Assembly: GCA_963677745.1 (NCBI GenBank)
Contig: OY782391.1
Span: 864,001-928,000 of the forward strand
DNA from: Candidatus Altimarinota bacterium
GTDB lineage: Bacteria; Patescibacteriota; Gracilibacteria; UBA1369
Length of the DNA: 64,000 bases
Direction of reading: 5' to 3'
Part shown: positions 45,066 through 52,316 of the stretch, piece by piece
Layout of the letters: every line of letters begins with the position of its first letter
Numbering within the stretch: the stretch's first letter is position 1
Made by a program: the position numbers and the translations under genes
The notes under the pieces: generated by a model
What the model saw: only the letters and a program-made list of their open reading frames with translations
The model's database searches: none
What the model was told of the DNA's origin: nothing

Positions 45066-45193
45066 CCCCAAAGTTTAAATTTAAACTTTAAGATCGCTTT
45101 TACTCAAGGTAAAAAAGCGGTCGCACTACTATGTACGTCAAGTTCAGACTTTATGTACATCGATGTTTATTTATCTATCTATTTATTCTAATT

Positions 45194-48100
45194 ATGGATT
45201 TATCCACAACATTTGCGTCAATTCGCAAACAAGTTGCTGGTCTTAGCTTGGTAGCACTCGTTGCAGGTCTCTTTGCAGCAGGTGTTGCTACAGCCGCAAC
45301 TGAGAATATTTTCTCAGATGTTCCAGCCGATGCGTGGTATGCAGGTTATGTAAATGACCTCGCTACTGCGGGAGTAATCGACTCCACAAAAGATATGTAC
45401 AGACCAGGTGACCTGGTCAACAGAGCTGAAATGGGCAAGTTTGCCTTCATGGTTTCCGGACTTCCTCTGGAGACTGCTTCAGCCGCTCCTTACAAGGATG
45501 TCGCTATGGGCCAATGGTATACAGATTATATCTATACCCTGACCAAGAACGGCATCGTCAGCGGAGACAAAGCCAATGGTGTCCCCACCGGTTATTTCAG
45601 ACCGGAAGCTCCTTTGAACAGAGCTGAGGCCGCCAAGATGCTTGTCAATGCTGCTGCCATGGCCGAAGACATTACAGGAAATCCTCATTTCCCTGATGTC
45701 ACTTCCGGCGCCTGGTATTTCAACTTTGTTGAAACAGCCTTCAATAACGGTGTTGTATCCGGCTATCCGGATGGCAACTACAGGCCTTCCAACAACATCA
45801 ACAGAGCAGAAGCCGCCAAGATGGTATTCCTGAGCATGAACCCGGTTGCTGCCGGCTTCACTCTGGATTCCGCCGCCGCTGCTTCCAAGACTACTGTTGA
45901 ACTGATCTTCTCGATGAACGTTGACTCCACTCTTGCTGCTGACGAAGCCAACTATCTCATCGAAGACTCAAGTGGTACCAAGCTCATAGTTTCCGCCGCT
46001 GAAGTAACAGCTGCCGACACTGTTATGCTGACTACCAGCACACAGACAGAGGGCAAAGTATATTATGTAACTGCCAAGAATGTGGAATCCGATGCCGGCG
46101 ATGCTCTCGCTAGCAGCGATTCCGTATCATTCCTCGGCTACGGTGCCGACGTCAGTGGTGGAGCTCTTGAAGTAGCTCTTTCCACACAGACTCCGGTTGC
46201 CGGATCCATTCCAAGTGGTGCTACAGGCGTAGTATTTACTTGTTGGGATTTCATGGCTGGTTCCAGCGATGTGACAGTTAAATCTGTTCACGTACATCGC
46301 GTAGGCCCAGGTTCACAAGGTGATTTTGACAATGTTTACCTGTACAATGGTGATCAGAGACTTACCACCGGAAGAACAATCAGCAGCGAAACTCAATTGG
46401 TTGAGTTCAACAACATCAACCAGGAGGTTGCCGCTGGTGACAACATGAAGCTCTGCGTAGTTGCAGATCTTAAAGCTGGTGCAAACGGAGGCGTACACGC
46501 TTTTGAACTTGCTTCAGCCGATTCAGTTATGAGCAACTCTTCAGACATGACTGGCTCCTTCCCGCTCCGCGGTGCCGATCAACTGATTACCTCTGCCCAA
46601 GTAGGCAAGAGCTACATCAGAAGAAACGGTACTCTGAACGAGGCCACCATTGGTGAAAAGGGTGTCAGAATTGCCCAGTTCGAGATCGAAGCTGACGGTT
46701 CAGAAGACCAGCAGCTCGAAAGAGTAGCTTTATATGTGAGAGGATCCATCAGCACAGGTGCAGTTTCCAACATGAAACTGTTTGTTGAAGGAGATTCCAC
46801 AGCTCTGGCCGCCACCGATGCCGTTGGTGCCAAAGAATTGGCTACCTTCTCTCTGGACAAACCATTCAAGATTGGACGTGGTATGAGAAAGATTTTCTAT
46901 GTCACGGGCGATCTGAATCCTGGCAAGAACGGTGATACTATCAAGATTTATCTTGATGAAACCACTGATCTTAACGTAACCGGAACAACTTACGGTTATG
47001 GAACCAGAGTCGACGCTACCAAATATGACGGTGGCGACGGTGCTGACCTTTTGGTCAACACATCTGATGATGAATATTCTTATGTCACCATCAAGGGTTC
47101 CGACTTCGTAGCTAACTGGACAGGTCCTTCCGCCTCCAATATTCCGGTAGGACAAAAAGCCGTAAGCTGCTTGGATCTGACCCTCACCAACTCTTCCGGT
47201 GAAGATCTCGAGATCAAAGACTGGGAAGTTGATGTAGCTGTTGCTCCAATCGTAGTAGCCGCCGATGGTGGTCTCTACAACGCGACAAACTCGACTCCAA
47301 ACTACACTCTCTTCAAGCTCGCCAGGATCAATGACGATGGAACCCTCGGTGGTTCCCTGCTTGGTCCAAACGAACTTCCAGGTGTAGTTGATGCTCTTCA
47401 AACCGTTAAACTTGGTGGAAGTGCCAACATCACTGCCGGTGAAACTGTCAAGGCCGCTGTCGTATTCGACATTGCCAACAACACTCTCATGAACGGTGAT
47501 AAAATCACTTGTACCCTGAAGGCCTTGAATGGCTCAGGCAAGGATTATATCCGCGATATCAATGGAGATGCCTTAACAGCTTCGTCCATTACTCCTTCTT
47601 CCGACATCGTCGGTAATCCTCTCAAAGTGGTAGATGCCGCTTTGAAGGTGAAGGTTGCTTCCACTCCTGCTTCTCAGACAGTTGTAAAGGGTGTAAGCGA
47701 TGTCAGCCTGCTCGGTATTTCTCTGGAATCCGGAGTTTTGGATTCCACACTGAAGACTATCAGCATTGCATCTGCTATCGATACAGCTCCAGCAGCTGTT
47801 CCAGCAGGTGATGCAGACGTTCTCCTGACACAAAGGGTTGAGAGCGGCAAGGCCACCAAGGATGTGGTCACCAACCTCAAACTTTATGATGGGGCAACTC
47901 AGGTGGGTACAGTGGAAAGCATCAATGATTCCACAGGAAAAGTAACCTTCAACAACCTCAGCGTATCTATTCCGAAAGGAACAACTAAACTGTTGGTTTT
48001 GAAAGGTAACATCTCCAACTCCACTTACACTGATACTCTGATCAAGTTTGGTGTTGTCGCTAATACAGACATCACTGCTCTTGATAACAACAGCCAGACA

Positions 48101-49492
48101 ATTTCCGGTATCAGCACAGTCAATGCCGAAAACGGCTTGAATGCAGGCGCAAACCTCATTCCAAGTGCTACCGGTACTACCATCACCATTAAGGATGCTG
48201 GTACTGTCAATGTTGCTTCTACCAGCCAATACACATCCAAACTGATTGGTGGTGGAGTAACTGCTGAAAAGATTGGCAACATCAAGTTCAACATGACTAA
48301 TGCTCCTGCCACGCTTGATGACTTCGTTCTGTCCGTATTGGGCGAACCAGCCGGTCTGCAAACTGTTTATCTGTTTGACTCCAGCTGTTCAACAGCCAGG
48401 GGCTCAGCCACAGGTTATTCTGTAACCGGTGGAACAGTCACCGTAACTGATGCCGCCATTGCTCTGCCAATTGGACAAACCACACTCTGTATCAAGGGTG
48501 ATTTTGCTCCGGTCAGCAGCACTCTGGTTGACCCACCAGTATCCGGTAAATTCGTTGCCATCGCTTTGACTGAAGTAAATCAGATCACATCCGGTGGTTC
48601 CGATATCAACGGTAACTTTGCTTCCTCAGTTGGTACAGAGACCGTTGGTATGACCGCTATTGCCACCAACCCCACCCTTTCCGGTGCTGTTGCTGCTGGT
48701 GACGTTGTTAAGATCGACGAAGAGTTGATGTATGTATCTTCAATCGGTCCAGTAGTAGTTATCAGAGGTTTTGCCGGTACAGCTGCCAATGCGCATTCCG
48801 CAGGCGCCGCCTACCAGGTATTGACCTCCGGAGTAACCAAACTGTTTGAATTGAATACTGCCACCTATAACAGGGGCACTGTTCTTTCCGATGGTACAAA
48901 CTACTTAATGTGTTTGAACCCAGTTTGCGCCGTAGCCGCTACAGATCAGTTGATCATCTCCGGTGTTACATTTAACCCAGCAGCTACCGCTCTGGATGTT
49001 AAATTTAACCAGGCAGGTGAAGCCTTCAAACTCAGAAAGGCTGCTCCAACTTTGGCTCTCTCCAACTCTGTAGTAGGAGGAAACACGCTCGCCACCTCGA
49101 CTCAGTTCGCTGTTGCAGCATTCTCCATTACAGCTGCAGGTGTGGGCGCAGTTGAATTCCAGCCAACCGATGCTATGAACTTTACAGTCGGCACCGGAAC
49201 AACTGTCAACTCTTGTGCTTTATACGGTCCAGGCGACCAGAAGTTATCTACCAACGATGCTTCACCAGCATCTATTGCTTTCGACAATGTAAGTGCATGG
49301 TCGATTTCAGCAGGTGAAACCAAAGTTCTCACTGTAAAGTGCGATCTGACCACAGTTGGTGGTGATGATTTCCAGATGACATTGGATAGTTTTAGCTACA
49401 GTGACGGAGTAGTTGCCAATATTACCGGCGACACCTCATTGATTGTTAATACTCTGCCAATCGCTGGCCCAACATTTACCAGACCCACATAG
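45194..49492 (+). CDS. S-layer protein with N-terminal SLH domains
   Basis: Signal peptide; three SLH repeats (FSDV...WY, NRAE x3); Thr/Ala/Gly-rich beta-sandwich repeats; distinct codon usage suggesting high expression. Confidence 0.9.
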   Translation: MDLSTTFASIRKQVAGLSLVALVAGLFAAGVATAATENIFSDVPADAWYAGYVNDLATAGVIDSTKDMYRPGDLVNRAEMGKFAFMVSGLPLETASAAPYKDVAMGQWYTDYIYTLTKNGIVSGDKANGVPTGYFRPEAPLNRAEAAKMLVNAAAMAEDITGNPHFPDVTSGAWYFNFVETAFNNGVVSGYPDGNYRPSNNINRAEAAKMVFLSMNPVAAGFTLDSAAAASKTTVELIFSMNVDSTLAADEANYLIEDSSGTKLIVSAAEVTAADTVMLTTSTQTEGKVYYVTAKNVESDAGDALASSDSVSFLGYGADVSGGALEVALSTQTPVAGSIPSGATGVVFTCWDFMAGSSDVTVKSVHVHRVGPGSQGDFDNVYLYNGDQRLTTGRTISSETQLVEFNNINQEVAAGDNMKLCVVADLKAGANGGVHAFELASADSVMSNSSDMTGSFPLRGADQLITSAQVGKSYIRRNGTLNEATIGEKGVRIAQFEIEADGSEDQQLERVALYVRGSISTGAVSNMKLFVEGDSTALAATDAVGAKELATFSLDKPFKIGRGMRKIFYVTGDLNPGKNGDTIKIYLDETTDLNVTGTTYGYGTRVDATKYDGGDGADLLVNTSDDEYSYVTIKGSDFVANWTGPSASNIPVGQKAVSCLDLTLTNSSGEDLEIKDWEVDVAVAPIVVAADGGLYNATNSTPNYTLFKLARINDDGTLGGSLLGPNELPGVVDALQTVKLGGSANITAGETVKAAVVFDIANNTLMNGDKITCTLKALNGSGKDYIRDINGDALTASSITPSSDIVGNPLKVVDAALKVKVASTPASQTVVKGVSDVSLLGISLESGVLDSTLKTISIASAIDTAPAAVPAGDADVLLTQRVESGKATKDVVTNLKLYDGATQVGTVESINDSTGKVTFNNLSVSIPKGTTKLLVLKGNISNSTYTDTLIKFGVVANTDITALDNNSQTISGISTVNAENGLNAGANLIPSATGTTITIKDAGTVNVASTSQYTSKLIGGGVTAEKIGNIKFNMTNAPATLDDFVLSVLGEPAGLQTVYLFDSSCSTARGSATGYSVTGGTVTVTDAAIALPIGQTTLCIKGDFAPVSSTLVDPPVSGKFVAIALTEVNQITSGGSDINGNFASSVGTETVGMTAIATNPTLSGAVAAGDVVKIDEELMYVSSIGPVVVIRGFAGTAANAHSAGAAYQVLTSGVTKLFELNTATYNRGTVLSDGTNYLMCLNPVCAVAATDQLIISGVTFNPAATALDVKFNQAGEAFKLRKAAPTLALSNSVVGGNTLATSTQFAVAAFSITAAGVGAVEFQPTDAMNFTVGTGTTVNSCALYGPGDQKLSTNDASPASIAFDNVSAWSISAGETKVLTVKCDLTTVGGDDFQMTLDSFSYSDGVVANITGDTSLIVNTLPIAGPTFTRPT

Positions 49493-49526
49493 TCTGTAGT
49501 GTTGTAGAAAACTAATTCTTAGTTTT

Positions 49527-49574
49527 AAGCCCGCATGGAACCCCGCTTCGGCGGGGCCCCCAGCGGGCTTTTTT
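49527..49574 (+). terminator. Intrinsic terminator of the S-layer gene
   Basis: AAGCCCGC...CCCCGC-TTCG-GCGGGG...GCGGGCTT plus T-run. Confidence 0.85.
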
Positions 49575-49589
49575 GTGCCTGTTTAACTA

Positions 49590-49618
49590 TTGACAAATAT
49601 ATGAAAATATTGTATCAA
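49590..49618 (+). promoter_or_regulatory. Promoter TTGACA-N17-TATCAA of lipoprotein gene 1
   Basis: Same relative position as the promoter in unit 2. Confidence 0.6.
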
Positions 49619-49697
49619 ATAGATGTCAAGTTGACCTTCGACATTTAGCTCCCGATTCCGAGGAGGGAAGAAGGGAGGAAAGGGAAAGGAAAAAAAC

Positions 49698-50609
49698 ATG
49701 AAGCGCTACGGATTTGGACTGTTTGTGGTGGCTGGCATGCTGATGCTGTCGGCGCTGCTGGGGCAGGCCTGTGTGTTGGATACATACGGGACACTGTTCG
49801 CTGACGGCGGCGCGGATGCCGGTCCGGACTGCAACGCTCTCTGCGAGGAAGCGGCTGCAGGAAGCTCCGGAAATGCCGGAACTGCCGGTCAGGGCACGCC
49901 CGATGTGGATGTGCCTGACACCTGCGACTGCGGAGATGCCGGAAGCGGTGGATCTGCCGGAGCAGGAGGTACTGGTGGAAGCGCCGGAACGGGCGGAGCC
50001 ACCGGCGGCACCGGAGGCTCGGCCGGACAAGGCGGAGCAACCGGAGGTACTGGCGGATCTGCCGGAAGCGGCGGAGAAGCTGGACAAGGAGGAACTGGCG
50101 GAGCAGCCGGAGGCGGCGGTCAGGCCGGACAAGGCGGAGCCGGCGGTTCGGGGCCAACCTGCGTAGTGGCAGGAGACGACGGAACTATCAACAAGATCAC
50201 CGCCGAAGCCATCCGGGTCTATCTGCACTATGCAGACGATTCCGAGACGTTTCTGTCCTACAGCCCGGTCAACTTCAGCTTCGATACCAAGCCGCTGTCC
50301 GCTCAGGCTGTTGTCTTGGGCAGCAATGGGCTGAGCTTCGGACTGTGGCATGATTCCACGCCTACACCCACTGTGCTCTATACAATTGATGAGGCAACCT
50401 TGCCGGCCGCAGAATGCACCGGAGTCGACATCAGGAGCATCGAGTGCAGCCGGATCTTGGCGAAGAGTTTCAGGTGCCAGTTCCCGCCCTACAACGAGGT
50501 GGTCGGCTGTCCAGCCAACGTTGCGTTCACCGCGCAGCTGGCCAGTGACAGCTATGCCGATCCGTCTGGGGGATACCAGATGGTACTCGCTGACATTTAC
50601 TGCCCCTAA
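49698..50609 (+). CDS. Gly-rich predicted lipoprotein with Cys-containing C-terminal domain (paralog 1)
   Basis: Signal peptide ending LGQAC; GGSAG/GQGG repeats; VYLHYAD...FRC domain. Confidence 0.8.
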   Translation: MKRYGFGLFVVAGMLMLSALLGQACVLDTYGTLFADGGADAGPDCNALCEEAAAGSSGNAGTAGQGTPDVDVPDTCDCGDAGSGGSAGAGGTGGSAGTGGATGGTGGSAGQGGATGGTGGSAGSGGEAGQGGTGGAAGGGGQAGQGGAGGSGPTCVVAGDDGTINKITAEAIRVYLHYADDSETFLSYSPVNFSFDTKPLSAQAVVLGSNGLSFGLWHDSTPTPTVLYTIDEATLPAAECTGVDIRSIECSRILAKSFRCQFPPYNEVVGCPANVAFTAQLASDSYADPSGGYQMVLADIYCP

Positions 50610-50646
50610 ACCCCAACCCCTCACCCGACTCAGAAAGGGAGTCAAA

Positions 50647-50784
50647 GTCGAAGTTCAACAACAGCTCGCCGACGCTTGAGTTGCCAAACAACCGCAAGGT
50701 AGTAGCAACGCAGGCCCAGGCGGAAAAGCAAGCCCCGCGCTGATCGTCCATACAGGACTTGATCGCGCGGGGCTCTTCGACGTG
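50647..50784 (+). ncRNA. Structured 3' RNA element, copy 1
   Basis: Repeat of 51725-51860 with compensatory changes. Confidence 0.7.
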
Positions 50785-50800
50785 TTTTTTTACGCCCAGA

Positions 50801-50828
50801 TTGACAAAATTAGAAAAAAACGTATAAG
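50801..50828 (+). promoter_or_regulatory. Promoter TTGACA-N16-TATAAG of lipoprotein gene 2
   Basis: Near-consensus hexamers. Confidence 0.6.
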
Positions 50829-50905
50829 TATAAGAGTAACATTGATCTTCGACATACACGCTCCCATCCCTGAAAAGGGACAATGGAAGGGAAAGGAAAA
50901 TTCCG

Positions 50906-51652
50906 GTGAACAACAAGTACAATCATTTCGTCTGGTTTTTCTGCCTGTTAACAGGCTGTCAGAGTGACGATGCCGCACTGTTCGGCGAAGGAGGAGCTCC
51001 CGCCGGCGGAAACGGCGGCGCTGGAGGTGAAACGGGCATCGCCGGACAGGGCGGCACCGCAGGAACGGCTGGAGCCGGTGGAATTGCCGGTTCGGATGCC
51101 GGCGGCGCTGATGCAGGTGCCGGAGGAACTGCCGGTAGCGGTGGAATCGCCGGCAACGGAGGAAATGGAGGCGCCGGCGGCGCTCTGCCTCTGGTCTGCA
51201 CTCCTGGTGCGGCCGACAACCCTGCCTCATGGTCGATCAACGGCGGGACCAAAGCATCGGTCTATCTGCGCTACGCAGACGGCACCGAGGGCTACAGCAC
51301 CGCCAACCCCAGTAACATCAACTTCCCGCTGGATTTCCCGGGACAACTGGTGGGGTCCACGGCCGACGGCATGACTATCAACCTGATCTACAACTCAGGC
51401 TCGGCGCCCGGCAACGACTTCTACCAGGTGACGACGGACAACGTACCGGAATGCGCCGGAACGAACTTCTACAGCCAGGCCTGCGACCAGAAGGTGGCCC
51501 AGGACTTTCGCTGCCTCTACTTTCCTGCAGAGGAAGCGGATTGCGGCAACGTCAAGGCGGCCTTCCTCTCGCTGGGGAAGCAGAAGTCGTACTCGGCGGC
51601 CTTCGCCGGCAACCGGAAAGTGCTGGTATCCGTCCGCTGTTCCTCGCCCTGA
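50906..51652 (+). CDS. Gly-rich predicted lipoprotein with Cys-containing C-terminal domain (paralog 2)
   Basis: Lipobox LTGC; GG.AG repeats; VYLRYAD...FRC domain. Confidence 0.8.
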   Translation: MNNKYNHFVWFFCLLTGCQSDDAALFGEGGAPAGGNGGAGGETGIAGQGGTAGTAGAGGIAGSDAGGADAGAGGTAGSGGIAGNGGNGGAGGALPLVCTPGAADNPASWSINGGTKASVYLRYADGTEGYSTANPSNINFPLDFPGQLVGSTADGMTINLIYNSGSAPGNDFYQVTTDNVPECAGTNFYSQACDQKVAQDFRCLYFPAEEADCGNVKAAFLSLGKQKSYSAAFAGNRKVLVSVRCSSP

Positions 51653-51724
51653 ACCGGTCCTGCCGCAACAGCATATTTCCCGCCGTCCCATGTCTCCCAC
51701 CGAACCCCGATTCCATCGGGAGCA

Positions 51725-51860
51725 GTCGAAGATCAATGGCATCTCGCCCAGGCTTGAGTCACCAGACAACCGCAAGGTAGTAGTGACGCAGGCCAAAGCG
51801 GAAAAAAAGGCCCCGCGTGATCGTCCTTCCGGACTTGATCGCGCGGGGCTCTTCGACGTG
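51725..51860 (+). ncRNA. Structured 3' RNA element, copy 2
   Basis: Repeat of 50647-50784. Confidence 0.7.
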
Positions 51861-52316
51861 CCTGCCCGGCTCCAGCCCCCGCCCGAGCCCTGCAAAGTAT
51901 TGCTGCATGCAAATCGCGCCAGAAAAAATTTAACTAAAATTAACCGAAACTTAATCCTGATTTGTCATGATTGCGTCAATTTATCATGTCATTTCCGCTG
52001 TATGCTGCCGCTTCTGACCTCTGTCCTGATCTGGCTGCTGTTTATGGCCGTTTCCGGCCATCCGCCGCTGTCGCCGGGTTGAACCATTCTGTCTGCCACT
52101 TTTGTGCCCGGGCCCAAATTTATCCCGAATTTATCTTCATTTCATGCCGGCCTGCCATAATCAGACCCGGTCAGCTGCCCTCACGGCCCGGGCCCGGCTC
52201 AATCTAAATGCCCTGGAATAGCTCCGCGCCCCGGGCAGCTGCTCAAAAGACAATTTTCTTGGTATACATTCCCCGGTTTGGCATCGGCGTTTTTTTGTAC
52301 TATATTCAGCTCAGTT

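What the first reader, a model, noticed from the sequence alone, without database searches (positions are those of the whole stretch)
50647..51860. Conserved ~135-nt 3' RNA domain with compensatory changes and a built-in strand switch
Seen in sequence: both genes are followed by the same element (50647-50784, 51725-51860), which appears better conserved than the proteins. Helix GTTGC/GCAAC in copy 1 becomes GTCAC/GTGAC in copy 2 (two compensatory pairs). It encloses an invariant ACC-GCAA-GGT GNRA hairpin. A second long hairpin GCCCCGCG..GATC.GTCC-loop-GGAC..GATC..CGCGGGGC differs mainly in its loop. The element ends in CTTCGAC (50775-81, 51851-57), the same 7-mer as in the 5' UTR, so the 5' UTR and the 3' end compete for one GTCGAAG strand. 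Inference: two mutually exclusive folds, switchable by 3' processing or by a ligand/protein. I do not recognise the motif as a known family.
Basis: partly seen in the sequence, partly recalled or inferred. Interest (0 to 1): 0.82.

Follow-up and report, generated by a model that had tools for sequence, protein, structure and literature searches.

The report
mRNA ends zipped by 3' RNA domain
Two neighbouring surface-protein genes of a tiny groundwater bacterium (Candidatus Peribacteria) carry a conserved folded RNA tail whose first part is complementary to the start of the same messenger RNA, so the two ends of the message probably pair, a rare arrangement in bacteria that most likely controls how long the message lasts.

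Summary
Two ~140-nt copies (50647-50781, 51725-51857) are 92% identical, although the proteins upstream share only 29-36%. There is no Rfam match.

Relatives in three other Peribacteria genomes keep the helices through compensatory changes: 16 of 47 pairs changed on both sides, and 0 of 500 shuffles reached this. The GCAA loop is not invariant outside this genome.

The shared 7-mer is part of a larger feature. The ~36 nt just 5' of hairpin P2 are complementary to the first ~40 nt of the same gene's 5' UTR (-33 and -35 kcal/mol here). This holds in 7 of 8 loci tested at about 2.5% or better. The cognate leader is the best partner for 7 of 8 targets, and the sequences differ from gene to gene.

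Full-length mRNA folds pair leader with anti-leader and never form P1. RNA truncated at the 5' end forms P1.

My reading is a cis 5'/3'-UTR clamp joined to a structured 3' domain and terminal hairpin, controlling mRNA stability or processing. No RNA data exist, so function is inferred. It is a new variant of a known kind (hbs, icaR).

The parts
49590..49618 (+). Predicted promoter of gene 1 (TTGACA at 49590-49595, 17-nt spacer, TATCAA at 49613-49618). The predicted transcription start is near 49623-49625.
   Evidence: Read. The same TTGACAA-N17 layout stands upstream of all homologous genes. It was not called by the simple scan because the -10 hexamer lacks the final T. This is an inference.
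49629..49663 (+). Leader 1: 5' UTR segment, containing CTTCGAC at 49636-49642 and GCTCCC, that pairs with anti-leader 1.
   Evidence: RNAduplex gives -35.0 kcal/mol; 0 of 1000 shuffled leaders and 0 of 1000 shuffled targets reach it. There are 30 leader:anti-leader pairs in the full-length MFE fold.
49698..50609 (+). Gene 1: a 303-aa secreted protein with a signal peptide, a Gly-rich linker and a conserved Cys-containing C-terminal domain.
   Evidence: ORF. No Pfam match.
50628..50663 (+). Anti-leader 1: the 36 nt immediately 5' of P2, complementary to leader 1. It contains the P1 5' strand GTCGAAG (50647-50653).
50665..50723 (+). P2 of copy 1: an irregular hairpin made of P2a CUCGCC/GGCGG, P2b GCUUG/CAGGC, P2c GUUGC/GCAAC, a conserved CAAACA / AGUAG internal loop, and the tip ACC-GCAA-GGU.
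   Evidence: Fold. Covariation: P2c has 4 of 5 pairs changed on both sides, and P2a has 3 of 4.
50731..50774 (+). P3 of copy 1: a GC-rich 17-bp terminal hairpin, preceded by the A-rich linker GAAAAGCA.
   Evidence: 18 pairs, 98.8% paired. A 90%-identical hairpin at G000:969226 lies outside the window and is followed by U6 on the opposite strand.
50775..50791 (+). P1 3' strand CTTCGAC (50775-50781), which mimics the leader, followed by GTG and a T7 run (50785-50791).
   Evidence: P1 forms only when the leader is absent.
50801..50828 (+). Predicted promoter of gene 2 (TTGACA at 50801-50806, TATAAG at 50823-50828). The predicted start is near 50833-50835.
   Evidence: This is an inference.
50839..50866 (+). 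Leader 2: CATTGATCTTCGAC (50840-50853) and GCTCCC (50860-50865).
   Evidence: A 14-bp perfect helix plus a 6-bp helix with anti-leader 2, at -32.9 kcal/mol; 0 of 1000 shuffles either way. In the gapless-helix test 0 of 300 shuffles reach it.
50906..51652 (+). Gene 2: a 248-aa lipoprotein-like paralogue, 29% identical to gene 1 over the C-terminal 150 aa.
51706..51741 (+). Anti-leader 2: GGGAGC (51718-51723) and GTCGAAGATCAATG (51725-51738). The latter includes the P1 5' strand at 51725-51731.
51743..51801 (+). P2 of copy 2 (P2c is GUCAC/GUGAC here).
51809..51850 (+). P3 of copy 2.
51851..51857 (+). P1 3' strand CTTCGAC of copy 2. No T run follows it.
   Evidence: The next terminator-like site on this strand is at 52273-52296.

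Best explanation
Each gene is transcribed from its own strong promoter into an mRNA whose 3' UTR carries a modular RNA domain. The modules are: (1) a ~36-nt anti-leader complementary to the first ~40 nt of that same mRNA's 5' UTR; (2) directly next to it, a conserved irregular hairpin P2 with a sequence-conserved internal loop (CAAACA / AGUAG); (3) an A-rich linker and a GC-rich terminal hairpin P3.

In the full-length transcript, leader and anti-leader zip the two ends of the message into a 20-30-bp helix. This helix meets P2 and P3 at a junction, and the coding region forms the closed loop. In this genus the tail after P3 (CUUCGAC) copies the leader core. RNA that has lost its leader can therefore close the same junction locally with the 7-bp P1.

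The most likely job is post-transcriptional control of these envelope-protein mRNAs. One version is that both ends are buried away from the 5' exonuclease RNase J, RNase Y and 3' exonucleases. The other is that the long duplex is an RNase III site that times processing or decay.

Shown: the sequences, the structure covariation, the gene-specific 5'/3' complementarity, and the in-silico mutual exclusion with P1. Inferred: the transcript boundaries, pairing in vivo, and the effect on stability.
For: Structure:
- z = -7 for both copies.
- On 5 sequences from 4 genomes, 93% of cells are paired and 16 of 47 pairs changed on both sides; 0 of 500 shuffles reached this. Versions slid by 1-3 columns gave 0-5 such pairs.
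- The U-G pair in P2b is kept in all copies, which fits sense-strand RNA.

5'/3' pairing under one uniform rule (45-nt predicted leader against the 36 nt ending 10 nt 5' of the first GCUUG). Values are kcal/mol, then shuffled leaders and shuffled targets reaching the value, out of 1000 each:
- win1: -35.0 (0; 0)
- win2: -32.9 (0; 0)
- G002a: -24.3 (0; 0)
- G004: -30.8 (0; 0)
- L015: -21.5 (3; 10)
- G002b: -22.2 (15; 12)
- G024: -19.3 (25; 19)
- G003: -16.3 (88; 72)

The cognate leader is the best of 8 leaders for 7 of 8 targets. The eighth target (win2) is beaten only by its paralogue's leader. The paired sequences differ between genes: GCUCCC:GGGAGC here, AGCUCGGA:UCCGAGCU in G002a, ACAGGCUC:GAGCCUGU in G004.

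Full-length mRNA folds: 30 and 19 leader:anti-leader pairs, with pairing probability about 1.0 and P1 at 0. RNA lacking the 5' 60 nt forms P1. Leader nucleotides paired to the 3' UTR numbered 35, 19, 21 and 23 in win1, win2, G002a and L015, each above all 18 shuffled-leader controls. G024 gave 26, with 1 of 18 shuffles at or above it.

The complementarity starts a few nt after the predicted start and does not reach into the promoter.

The genome encodes RNase III, RNase J and two RNase Y-like proteins, and no RNase E/G was found.

Precedents, read from abstracts: a 14-bp 5'/3'-UTR interaction modulates RNase Y cleavage of B. subtilis hbs mRNA (PMC5737220); icaR 3'UTR-5'UTR pairing creates an RNase III substrate (PMC3868564).
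Against: - There is no transcript evidence: no RNA run holds the locus. Transcription starts, 3' ends and co-transcription of the two regions are predictions.
- Less targeted tests are weaker. With the first 130 nt of each 3' UTR as target, only win1, win2 and G002a reach p <= 0.005. G024, G002b and L015 sit at 0.06-0.07, and G004 (whose element lies beyond 130 nt), G003, G017 and G015a are not significant. Fisher's combined p for the six divergent loci is 0.26.
- In the gapless-helix test only win2 is clear, at 0 of 300 shuffles; win1 is at 17 of 300.
- In full-length MFE folds the leader pairs with the 3' UTR at 0, 3 and 4 nt in G002b, G004 and G015a. G003 is no better than shuffles, with 9 of 18 at or above it.
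- The 36-nt rule was fixed after I had seen where the pairing falls in the first four loci. The ACUUC anchor for G003 was chosen post hoc.
- The covariation alignment was fitted to the model, and only 4 genomes carry the full form.
- The 92% identity of the two copies may partly reflect recent gene conversion rather than long constraint. Positional orthologue G002b has a different 3' UTR.
- MFE folds of 1-kb RNAs are unreliable and ignore ribosomes.
- The direction of the effect (stabilising or destabilising) is unknown.
Confidence: 0.55

Rival explanations
1. A 3'-UTR-derived small RNA acting in trans. Processing upstream of the anti-leader releases a ~140-170-nt RNA with a 5' seed (the anti-leader), a structured body (P2) and a terminal hairpin (P3). 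This RNA pairs with the leaders of other copies of the same mRNA as feedback. P1 masks the seed in the free RNA.
For: The layout of seed, structured body and terminal hairpin is that of a classic base-pairing sRNA. P1 forms when the leader is absent. Each anti-leader matches its own gene's leader, which suits autoregulation. The icaR authors also examined icaR mRNA dimers, judging by a methods heading in the outline; I did not read that section.
Against: No promoter-like sequence is seen in front of the element (none called). Genome-wide, the anti-leaders have no uniquely good target: win1's own leader is best by only 0.9 kcal/mol, and win2's own leader is not among the top 12 seeded windows. 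That leaves the same-molecule advantage as the simplest source of specificity. No RNA data exist. I did not search for Hfq or ProQ.
Confidence: 0.15
2. An elaborate transcription terminator or 3' stabiliser only. P2 and P3 protect or define the 3' end of abundant envelope-protein mRNAs, and the complementarity to the leader has no function of its own.
For: In G024 and G004, P3 is a canonical GC hairpin followed by a U-tract. A near-identical hairpin elsewhere in this genome sits between convergent genes with a U6 on the other strand. In copy 1, P1 is followed by GUG and U7. The neighbouring S-layer gene also has a conserved nested terminator.
Against: This reading does not explain the gene-specific complementarity that is kept while the sequences change in 7 of 8 loci, including a perfect 14-mer. 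I computed a chance expectation of roughly 3e-6 for two regions of 45 and 36 nt. It also does not explain why the tail after P3 copies the leader in this genus. In the window, P3 itself is not followed by a U-tract and was not called terminator-like.
Confidence: 0.12
3. A ligand- or protein-sensing switch. P2, with its conserved internal loop, binds a factor that decides whether the GUCGAAG strand pairs with the leader or with the 3' tail.
For: The loop sequences of P2 (CAAACA / AGUAG) are conserved while the flanking helices co-vary, which is typical of a binding or tertiary-contact site. Two mutually exclusive folds are predicted.
Against: The leader duplex is far stronger than P1 (-33 to -35 against -11 to -18 kcal/mol), so there is no balanced equilibrium to tip. 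The competition is absent in G002a, G024 and G004. The apical loop is not conserved. More distant homologues lack P2c and the internal loop. The location in a 3' UTR is unlike known riboswitches.
Confidence: 0.08
4. A DNA-level feature. Inverted repeats flanking each coding region would serve site-specific inversion (phase variation of a surface protein), or paired operator sites would serve a looping repressor.
For: At the DNA level, leader and anti-leader are inverted repeats that bracket the coding region, with the promoter outside them. Surface proteins are typical targets of phase variation.
Against: The repeats are imperfect and contain a G-U-type position (GCUCCC with GGGAGU in gene 1). 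Their sequences differ from gene to gene while staying complementary, which does not fit a shared recombinase or repressor site. No serine recombinase was found, and the nearest of 3 tyrosine recombinases is about 33 kb away. No strand-switching joint appeared in contigs of 4 runs, although contigs drop rare variants. The adjoining P2 and P3 are clearly RNA-level.
Confidence: 0.05

Closest known systems
B. subtilis hbs mRNA 5'/3'-UTR interaction (Braun, Durand and Condon 2017, PMC5737220; abstract read)
   Same: There is long-range base pairing between the 5' and 3' UTR of one mRNA: 14 bp in hbs, and a perfect 14-bp helix plus a 6-bp helix in gene 2 here. Both organisms have RNase Y and RNase J, and the window's genome lacks RNase E. 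The gene product is expected to be abundant in both cases.
   Different: The pairing here is longer (up to about 30 pairs). It sits directly beside a conserved structured domain and the terminal hairpin. It is kept by co-variation across a gene family in several genera. In this genus it is accompanied by a local mimic helix (P1). No experiment exists for this case.
S. aureus icaR mRNA 3'UTR-5'UTR pairing (Ruiz de los Mozos et al. 2013, PMC3868564; abstract read)
   Same: [quoted passage not shown] The window's genome has RNase III.
   Different: icaR pairing covers the Shine-Dalgarno region and blocks initiation. Here the paired leader segment lies mostly upstream of the purine-rich ribosome-binding region, so direct occlusion of translation is unlikely.
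Processing stems of rRNA operons (5' and 3' flanks of 16S/23S pair and are cut by RNase III); recalled from general knowledge, not taken from a call
   Same: A long helix formed by sequences flanking a kilobase-sized loop; a candidate RNase III site.
   Different: Here the loop is a translated mRNA, and no processing has been shown.
Intrinsic (Rho-independent) terminators
   Same: P3 is a GC-rich hairpin at the end of the transcription unit. A U-tract follows it in G024 and G004.
   Different: In the window, the sequence after P3 is the leader mimic rather than a U-tract. Copy 1 has U7 only after P1, and copy 2 has none.

Membership tests
Any Rfam 15 family | Covariance-model score at or above the family's gathering threshold | tested here: not met
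   the window has 6 matches, all tRNA, and none lies in 49500-52000. (E <= 10): 6 weak matches. The only one overlapping the element is Yar_2 at 16.5 bits against a gathering score of 50 (E 2.1), and that model has no base pairs.
Bacterial 5'/3'-UTR interacting mRNAs (hbs / icaR type) | Extended complementarity between the 5' UTR and 3' UTR of the same gene, beyond chance | tested here: met
   7 of 8 loci reach about 2.5% or better against 1000 shuffles on each side, and the cognate leader is best for 7 of 8 targets; a perfect 14-bp helix in gene 2, reached by 0 of 300 shuffles.
Bacterial 5'/3'-UTR interacting mRNAs (hbs / icaR type) | Both segments lie on one transcript and pair in the cell | not testable with these tools
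   No RNA run holds the locus. Only in-silico folds are available.
Bacterial 5'/3'-UTR interacting mRNAs (hbs / icaR type) | Pairing alters RNase cleavage, mRNA half-life or translation | not testable with these tools
   RNase III, J and Y genes are present, but there is no functional assay.
icaR-type anti-SD 3' UTR | The 3' UTR motif pairs with the Shine-Dalgarno sequence | tested here: not met
   The paired leader segments are nt 7-41 (gene 1) and nt 7-34 (gene 2) of 5' UTRs about 75 nt long. The purine-rich ribosome-binding stretch lies mainly downstream of them.
Intrinsic terminator | GC-rich hairpin followed within 0-2 nt by a U-rich tract | tested here: inconclusive
   Not called for P3 in the window. 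Copy 1 has U7 starting 3 nt after P1, and copy 2 has none. G024 and G004 have a U-tract right after P3.
GNRA-tetraloop hairpin as a conserved tertiary element | GNRA loop conserved across homologues | tested here: not met
   The loop is GCAA in G000 (both copies) and G024, CCCG in G002a and AUCA in G001.
Riboswitch | Conserved aptamer upstream of the regulated gene, with an expression platform | tested here: not met
   The element always follows the stop codon of its gene family. What lies downstream differs: a promoter and paralogue for copy 1, about 410 nt of non-coding DNA for copy 2, and a stretch without an obvious gene for about 150 nt in G024.
Mobile repeat (MITE / REP) or integron attC | Many dispersed copies, or a cassette array beside an integrase | tested here: not met
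   The genome holds only 2 full copies plus one P3-only site. The position is syntenic in other genera, between the S-layer gene and the ABC-2 permease. No recombinase is adjacent.

The most novel reading that the evidence does not exclude
This would be a bacterial closed-loop mRNA. A phylogenetically maintained end-to-end helix, together with the P2/P3 junction, brings stop codon and start codon within a few tens of nucleotides of each other. It then forms a dedicated platform, for example for a protein bound at the conserved CAAACA/AGUAG loop, that couples termination to re-initiation or sets mRNA lifetime for envelope proteins of an ultra-small CPR bacterium. P1 would act as a built-in sensor that reports loss of the 5' end. 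If so, it would be the first 5'/3'-UTR circularisation module in bacteria defined by covariation across genera, rather than in a single gene.
Probability: 0.15. Interest if true: 0.85.

Novelty: new variant of a known kind. Interest (0 to 1): 0.62.

Why it matters
Base pairing between the two UTRs of one bacterial mRNA has been documented in only a handful of single genes, hbs and icaR among them. To my knowledge, which is recall and not a systematic review, it has not been supported by comparative covariation.

Here the pairing is kept by compensatory evolution in a whole gene family across several genera of uncultivated Peribacteria. It is physically joined to a conserved structured 3' domain that is not in Rfam.

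If confirmed, it gives a testable model for how organisms with 1.3-Mb genomes and few regulators tune the expression of surface proteins at the RNA level. It would also add a defined RNA motif (anti-leader, P2, terminal hairpin) that can be searched for elsewhere.

Tried and rejected
**Rfam.** Searches at gathering and at E <= 10 returned nothing relevant.

**Wider distribution of the element.**
- The BLAST-type DNA search of 61 genomes matched only G000, G002 and G024.
- Model R2 on a 151-genome sample of the order matched only G000 and G024. That sample held 22 of the family's genomes.
- The P2-only model R3 on all 36 family genomes added only G004 (E 0.014) and a weak hit, probably chance, on G002 contig 4 (E 0.10).
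- The weak R1 hit in G004 contig 24 is only a terminator-like hairpin.

**RNA evidence.** No RNA holder is listed for the locus. Laying contigs of 4 runs gave a few strain variants, no strand-switch joint and one 581-nt skip in the Gly-rich repeat region of gene 1 in one run. This says nothing on expression.

**Trans-target scan.** It showed no unique genome-wide target.

**Whole-3'UTR duplex tests and gapless-helix tests.** These were weak outside genus g1. My first versions used a wrong start for win1 and missed the G004 element because it lies about 335 nt after the stop.

**Protein context.** There is no Pfam hit. The word-index homologue search found only the query itself. The full HMMER scan found 46 proteins. 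The AlphaFold model is confident (pLDDT 94.4) but has no PDB fold match: 0 of 337 listed matches reach E <= 0.001.

**Ideas considered and dropped.**
- Hammerhead or other self-cleaving ribozymes: no Rfam hit, and the core motifs are not seen by eye.
- A CsrA site in the P3 loop: the GGA is part of the stem and the loop is not conserved.
- K-turn or loop-E identity for the P2 internal loop: this cannot be tested here.

**Literature.** Full-text searches for Peribacteria/Peregrinibacteria and for 'candidate phyla radiation' with 'RNA motif' and 'covariation' listed no paper describing this element. The Peribacteria genome paper PMC4736985 has 0 occurrences of UTR, ncRNA, non-coding or terminator (find mode).
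Full report
**What is there.** The window comes from a complete 1.336-Mb, 47% GC genome. Its closest relatives are titled 'uncultured Candidatus Peribacteria bacterium', so it belongs to the Candidate Phyla Radiation.

Downstream of a 1453-aa SLH-domain S-layer gene (45131-49492) lie two tandem genes on the + strand, at 49698-50609 and 50906-51652. Each has its own TTGACA-type promoter, a ~75-nt purine-rich 5' UTR, a signal or lipoprotein-type N-terminus, a Gly-rich linker and a ~150-aa Cys-containing C-terminal domain.

The two copies are 92% identical over 142 columns. The proteins are 36% identical overall and 29% over the C-terminal 150 aa.

**Structure.** Each copy folds into a three-way junction with these parts:
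- P1, 7 bp (GUCGAAG/CUUCGAC), closes the junction.
- P2 is a long irregular arm: P2a, P2b, P2c, an internal loop, and a 3-bp tip with a GCAA loop.
- P3 is a 17-bp GC-rich hairpin.

The folds reach -70.5 and -80.5 kcal/mol, with z = -7.0 and -7.1, and 0 of 200 shuffles fold as well. Rfam 15 has no match at gathering thresholds or at E <= 10.

**Relatives and covariation.** The full form was found in few genomes:
- A covariance model built from the two copies found it in G001 and G002 (same genus) and G024 (another genus), among 36 family genomes.
- A five-sequence model found nothing further in a 151-genome sample of the order.
- In G002 and G024 the element sits after the orthologous gene, in the same neighbourhood: S-layer terminator upstream, ABC-2 permease downstream. 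In G001 the contig ends inside the locus.

On the five sequences, 93% of cells form pairs and 16 of 47 pairs show changes on both sides (0 of 500 shuffles). Partners slid by 1-3 columns give only 0-5 such pairs. P2c reads GUUGC/GCAAC, GUCAC/GUGAC, GCUGU/ACAGC and GCCGC/GCGGC. P2a and the tip of P3 also co-vary.

Two caveats apply: that alignment was fitted to the model, and only four genomes contribute. The internal-loop sequences CAAACA and AGUAG are conserved while the helices change. The apical loop is not conserved: GCAA, CCCG, AUCA.

**More distant homologues.** The gene family occurs in 8 of 201 genomes of the order and in 4 metagenome loci. Distant members keep a reduced core: P2a, P2b (GCUUG...CAGGC), an A-rich linker and a terminator hairpin. 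This is seen in G002b, G003, G015c, L013, L015/L016 and G004. In G004 the element lies about 335 nt after the stop.

G017 shows no such core. G015a shows only a short GCAA-tipped hairpin before its terminator. One metagenome gene is followed directly by its paralogue.

**The 7-mer is the tip of a long 5'/3' complementarity.** CTTCGAC alone is unremarkable, with 74 + 46 copies in the genome.

The region just 5' of P2 is a different matter. It includes the P1 5' strand and is complementary to the start of the same gene's 5' UTR:
- Gene 2: CAUUGAUCUUCGAC and GCUCCC pair with GGGAGC and GUCGAAGAUCAAUG (14 + 6 perfect pairs, -32.9 kcal/mol).
- Gene 1: an almost continuous imperfect duplex of about 30 pairs (-35.0 kcal/mol).

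I then applied one rule to every locus that has both UTRs: the 45-nt predicted leader against the 36 nt ending 10 nt 5' of the first GCUUG. The cognate duplex beats 1000 dinucleotide shuffles of either partner in win1, win2, G002a and G004 (0 of 1000 each). It is at 3-25 of 1000 in L015, G002b and G024, and at 72-88 of 1000 in G003.

The cognate leader is the best of eight leaders for 7 of 8 targets. The exception, win2, is beaten only by its paralogue's leader. The paired sequences differ between genes, and even the two paralogues of G002 are specific for their own partners. This is co-variation of a long-range helix, and it argues for action on the same molecule.

**Weaker results, told in full.**
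- With the first 130 nt of each 3' UTR as target, only win1, win2 and G002a reach p <= 0.005. G024, G002b and L015 are at 0.06-0.07, and the rest are not significant. Fisher's p for the six divergent loci is 0.26. G004's element lies outside that 130-nt range.
- The single gapless-helix test is clear only for win2.
- In full-length MFE folds, leader nucleotides paired to the 3' UTR number 35 (win1), 19 (win2), 21 (G002a), 26 (G024) and 23 (L015). They number only 9 (G003), 0 (G002b), 3 (G004) and 4 (G015a).
- Shuffled-leader controls, 18 per locus, are all lower for win1, win2, G002a and L015. One of 18 is at or above the observed value for G024, and 9 of 18 for G003.
- The anchoring rule was set after I had seen the first four cases.

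**The switch.** In partition-function folds of the predicted full-length mRNAs (1168 and 1034 nt), each nucleotide of GUCGAAG pairs with the leader at probability 0.99-1.0 and with the P1 3' strand at 0. P2 and P3 are unchanged. Removing the first 60 nt makes P1 form.

This competition is a feature of this genome and is not conserved:
- In G002a, P1 uses a 5' strand about 95 nt upstream of the anti-leader.
- In G024 and G004 an ordinary U-tract follows P3.

I read P1 as a local stand-in for the leader helix that closes the same junction when the 5' end is missing.

**Mechanism.** The genome encodes RNase III, RNase J and two RNase Y-like proteins, and no RNase E/G was found. This is a Bacillus-type decay system, in which a free 5' end and accessible leader sites start decay.

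Two published cases work this way, both read from abstracts. A 14-bp 5'/3'-UTR interaction modulates RNase Y cleavage of hbs mRNA (PMC5737220). icaR 3'UTR/5'UTR pairing creates an RNase III substrate and blocks initiation (PMC3868564).

Here the paired leader segment lies mostly upstream of the ribosome-binding stretch, so I favour control of stability or processing over occlusion of translation. Whether the clamp protects the mRNA or marks it for RNase III cannot be decided without experiments.

**Rivals.**
- A trans-acting 3'-UTR-derived sRNA is possible, but the anti-leaders have no unique genome-wide target.
- A mere terminator or stabiliser does not explain the gene-specific complementarity.
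- A ligand switch lacks a balanced equilibrium and a conserved competition.
- DNA inversion or operator pairs fit poorly with repeats that differ from gene to gene, with a G-U-type position, with no nearby recombinase and with no inverted joint in contigs.

**Concerted evolution.** The two copies are 92% identical, yet the genes are old paralogues. Gene 1 is closer to G002b and G024 than to gene 2, and G002b has a different 3' UTR. The 3' domain was therefore probably copied between the two genes in this lineage. This weakens the argument 'better conserved than the protein'. The four compensatory substitutions in P2c since that event remain a clear sign of selection for structure.

**Limits.**
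- There are no RNA data.
- Transcription starts are predicted from promoter spacing.
- Few genomes carry the family.
- Supplementary files of papers were closed.

**Verdict.** This is a real, structured, lineage-restricted 3'-UTR RNA domain that is not in Rfam. Its 5' segment pairs with the mRNA's own leader. It is a new variant of the rare bacterial 5'/3'-UTR interaction, with unusually good comparative support and an untested function.

Noticed in passing
window 49528-49576; also L005 121-170 and the upstream flanks printed: The S-layer gene ends in a nested two-level terminator: an outer stem GCCCGC...GCGGGC enclosing a CCCCGC-UUCG-GCGGGG hairpin, then U6. Its outer sequence (CCGCAUGG ... 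CCCAGCGG + U-run) recurs upstream of the homologous genes in G024, G004, G002b, G015a and L014. It looks like a second conserved structured 3' end in this gene neighbourhood.
   Followed up: partly
window 51858-52270, especially about 52185-52222: About 410 nt of apparently non-coding DNA lies between copy 2 and the ABC-2 permease gene. It contains a block (CGGGCC-GGCTCAATC-AAATGCCCTGGAAT) that is nearly identical in G002. Its function is unknown. It could be another small RNA or a regulatory site. A terminator-like hairpin plus T7 at 52273-52296 overlaps a promoter-like site for the permease.
   Followed up: partly
G000:C1:969226-969271 (outside the window; L003): A hairpin 90% identical to P3, preceded by the same A-rich linker, sits after a small membrane-protein ORF. 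It is followed by U6 on the opposite strand, so it looks like a bidirectional terminator between convergent genes. Why an unrelated locus shares this exact hairpin is unexplained.
   Followed up: partly
window 49698-50609 and 50906-51652 (C-terminal ~150 aa): The C-terminal domain defines a rare orphan family: 46 proteins at E <= 0.001 among 1.84 billion representatives. Five cysteines are invariant. The AlphaFold model is very confident (pLDDT 94.4, pTM 0.89), yet no PDB chain matches at E <= 0.001 and the best TM-score is below 0.3. It may be a new fold of a CPR surface protein.
   Followed up: yes
window 49590-49650 and 50801-50866; homologous promoters: All family members share a TTGACAA -35 box, a 17-nt spacer and, about 10-25 nt into the transcript, a GAUCYUYGAAMA-like leader box containing the palindromic core UCGA/UUCGAA. 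Its sequence is more conserved than pairing alone would require, so it may also be a protein or RNase recognition site.
   Followed up: partly
G000:C1:263847-265352 and 714814-716304: The 1.3-Mb genome encodes two full-length RNase Y-like proteins of 519 aa each, one above and one below the NCBIfam cut-off. No RNase E/G was found.
   Followed up: no
window 49635-49655 (run X7, depth about 2): A related strain in a freshwater-sediment metagenome shows several substitutions in leader 1. Among them, C>T at 49635 makes it read like leader 2. There is also an 11-nt insertion behind 49644 that repeats part of the leader box. The depth is too low to trust, and the matching anti-leader was not covered.
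   Followed up: no
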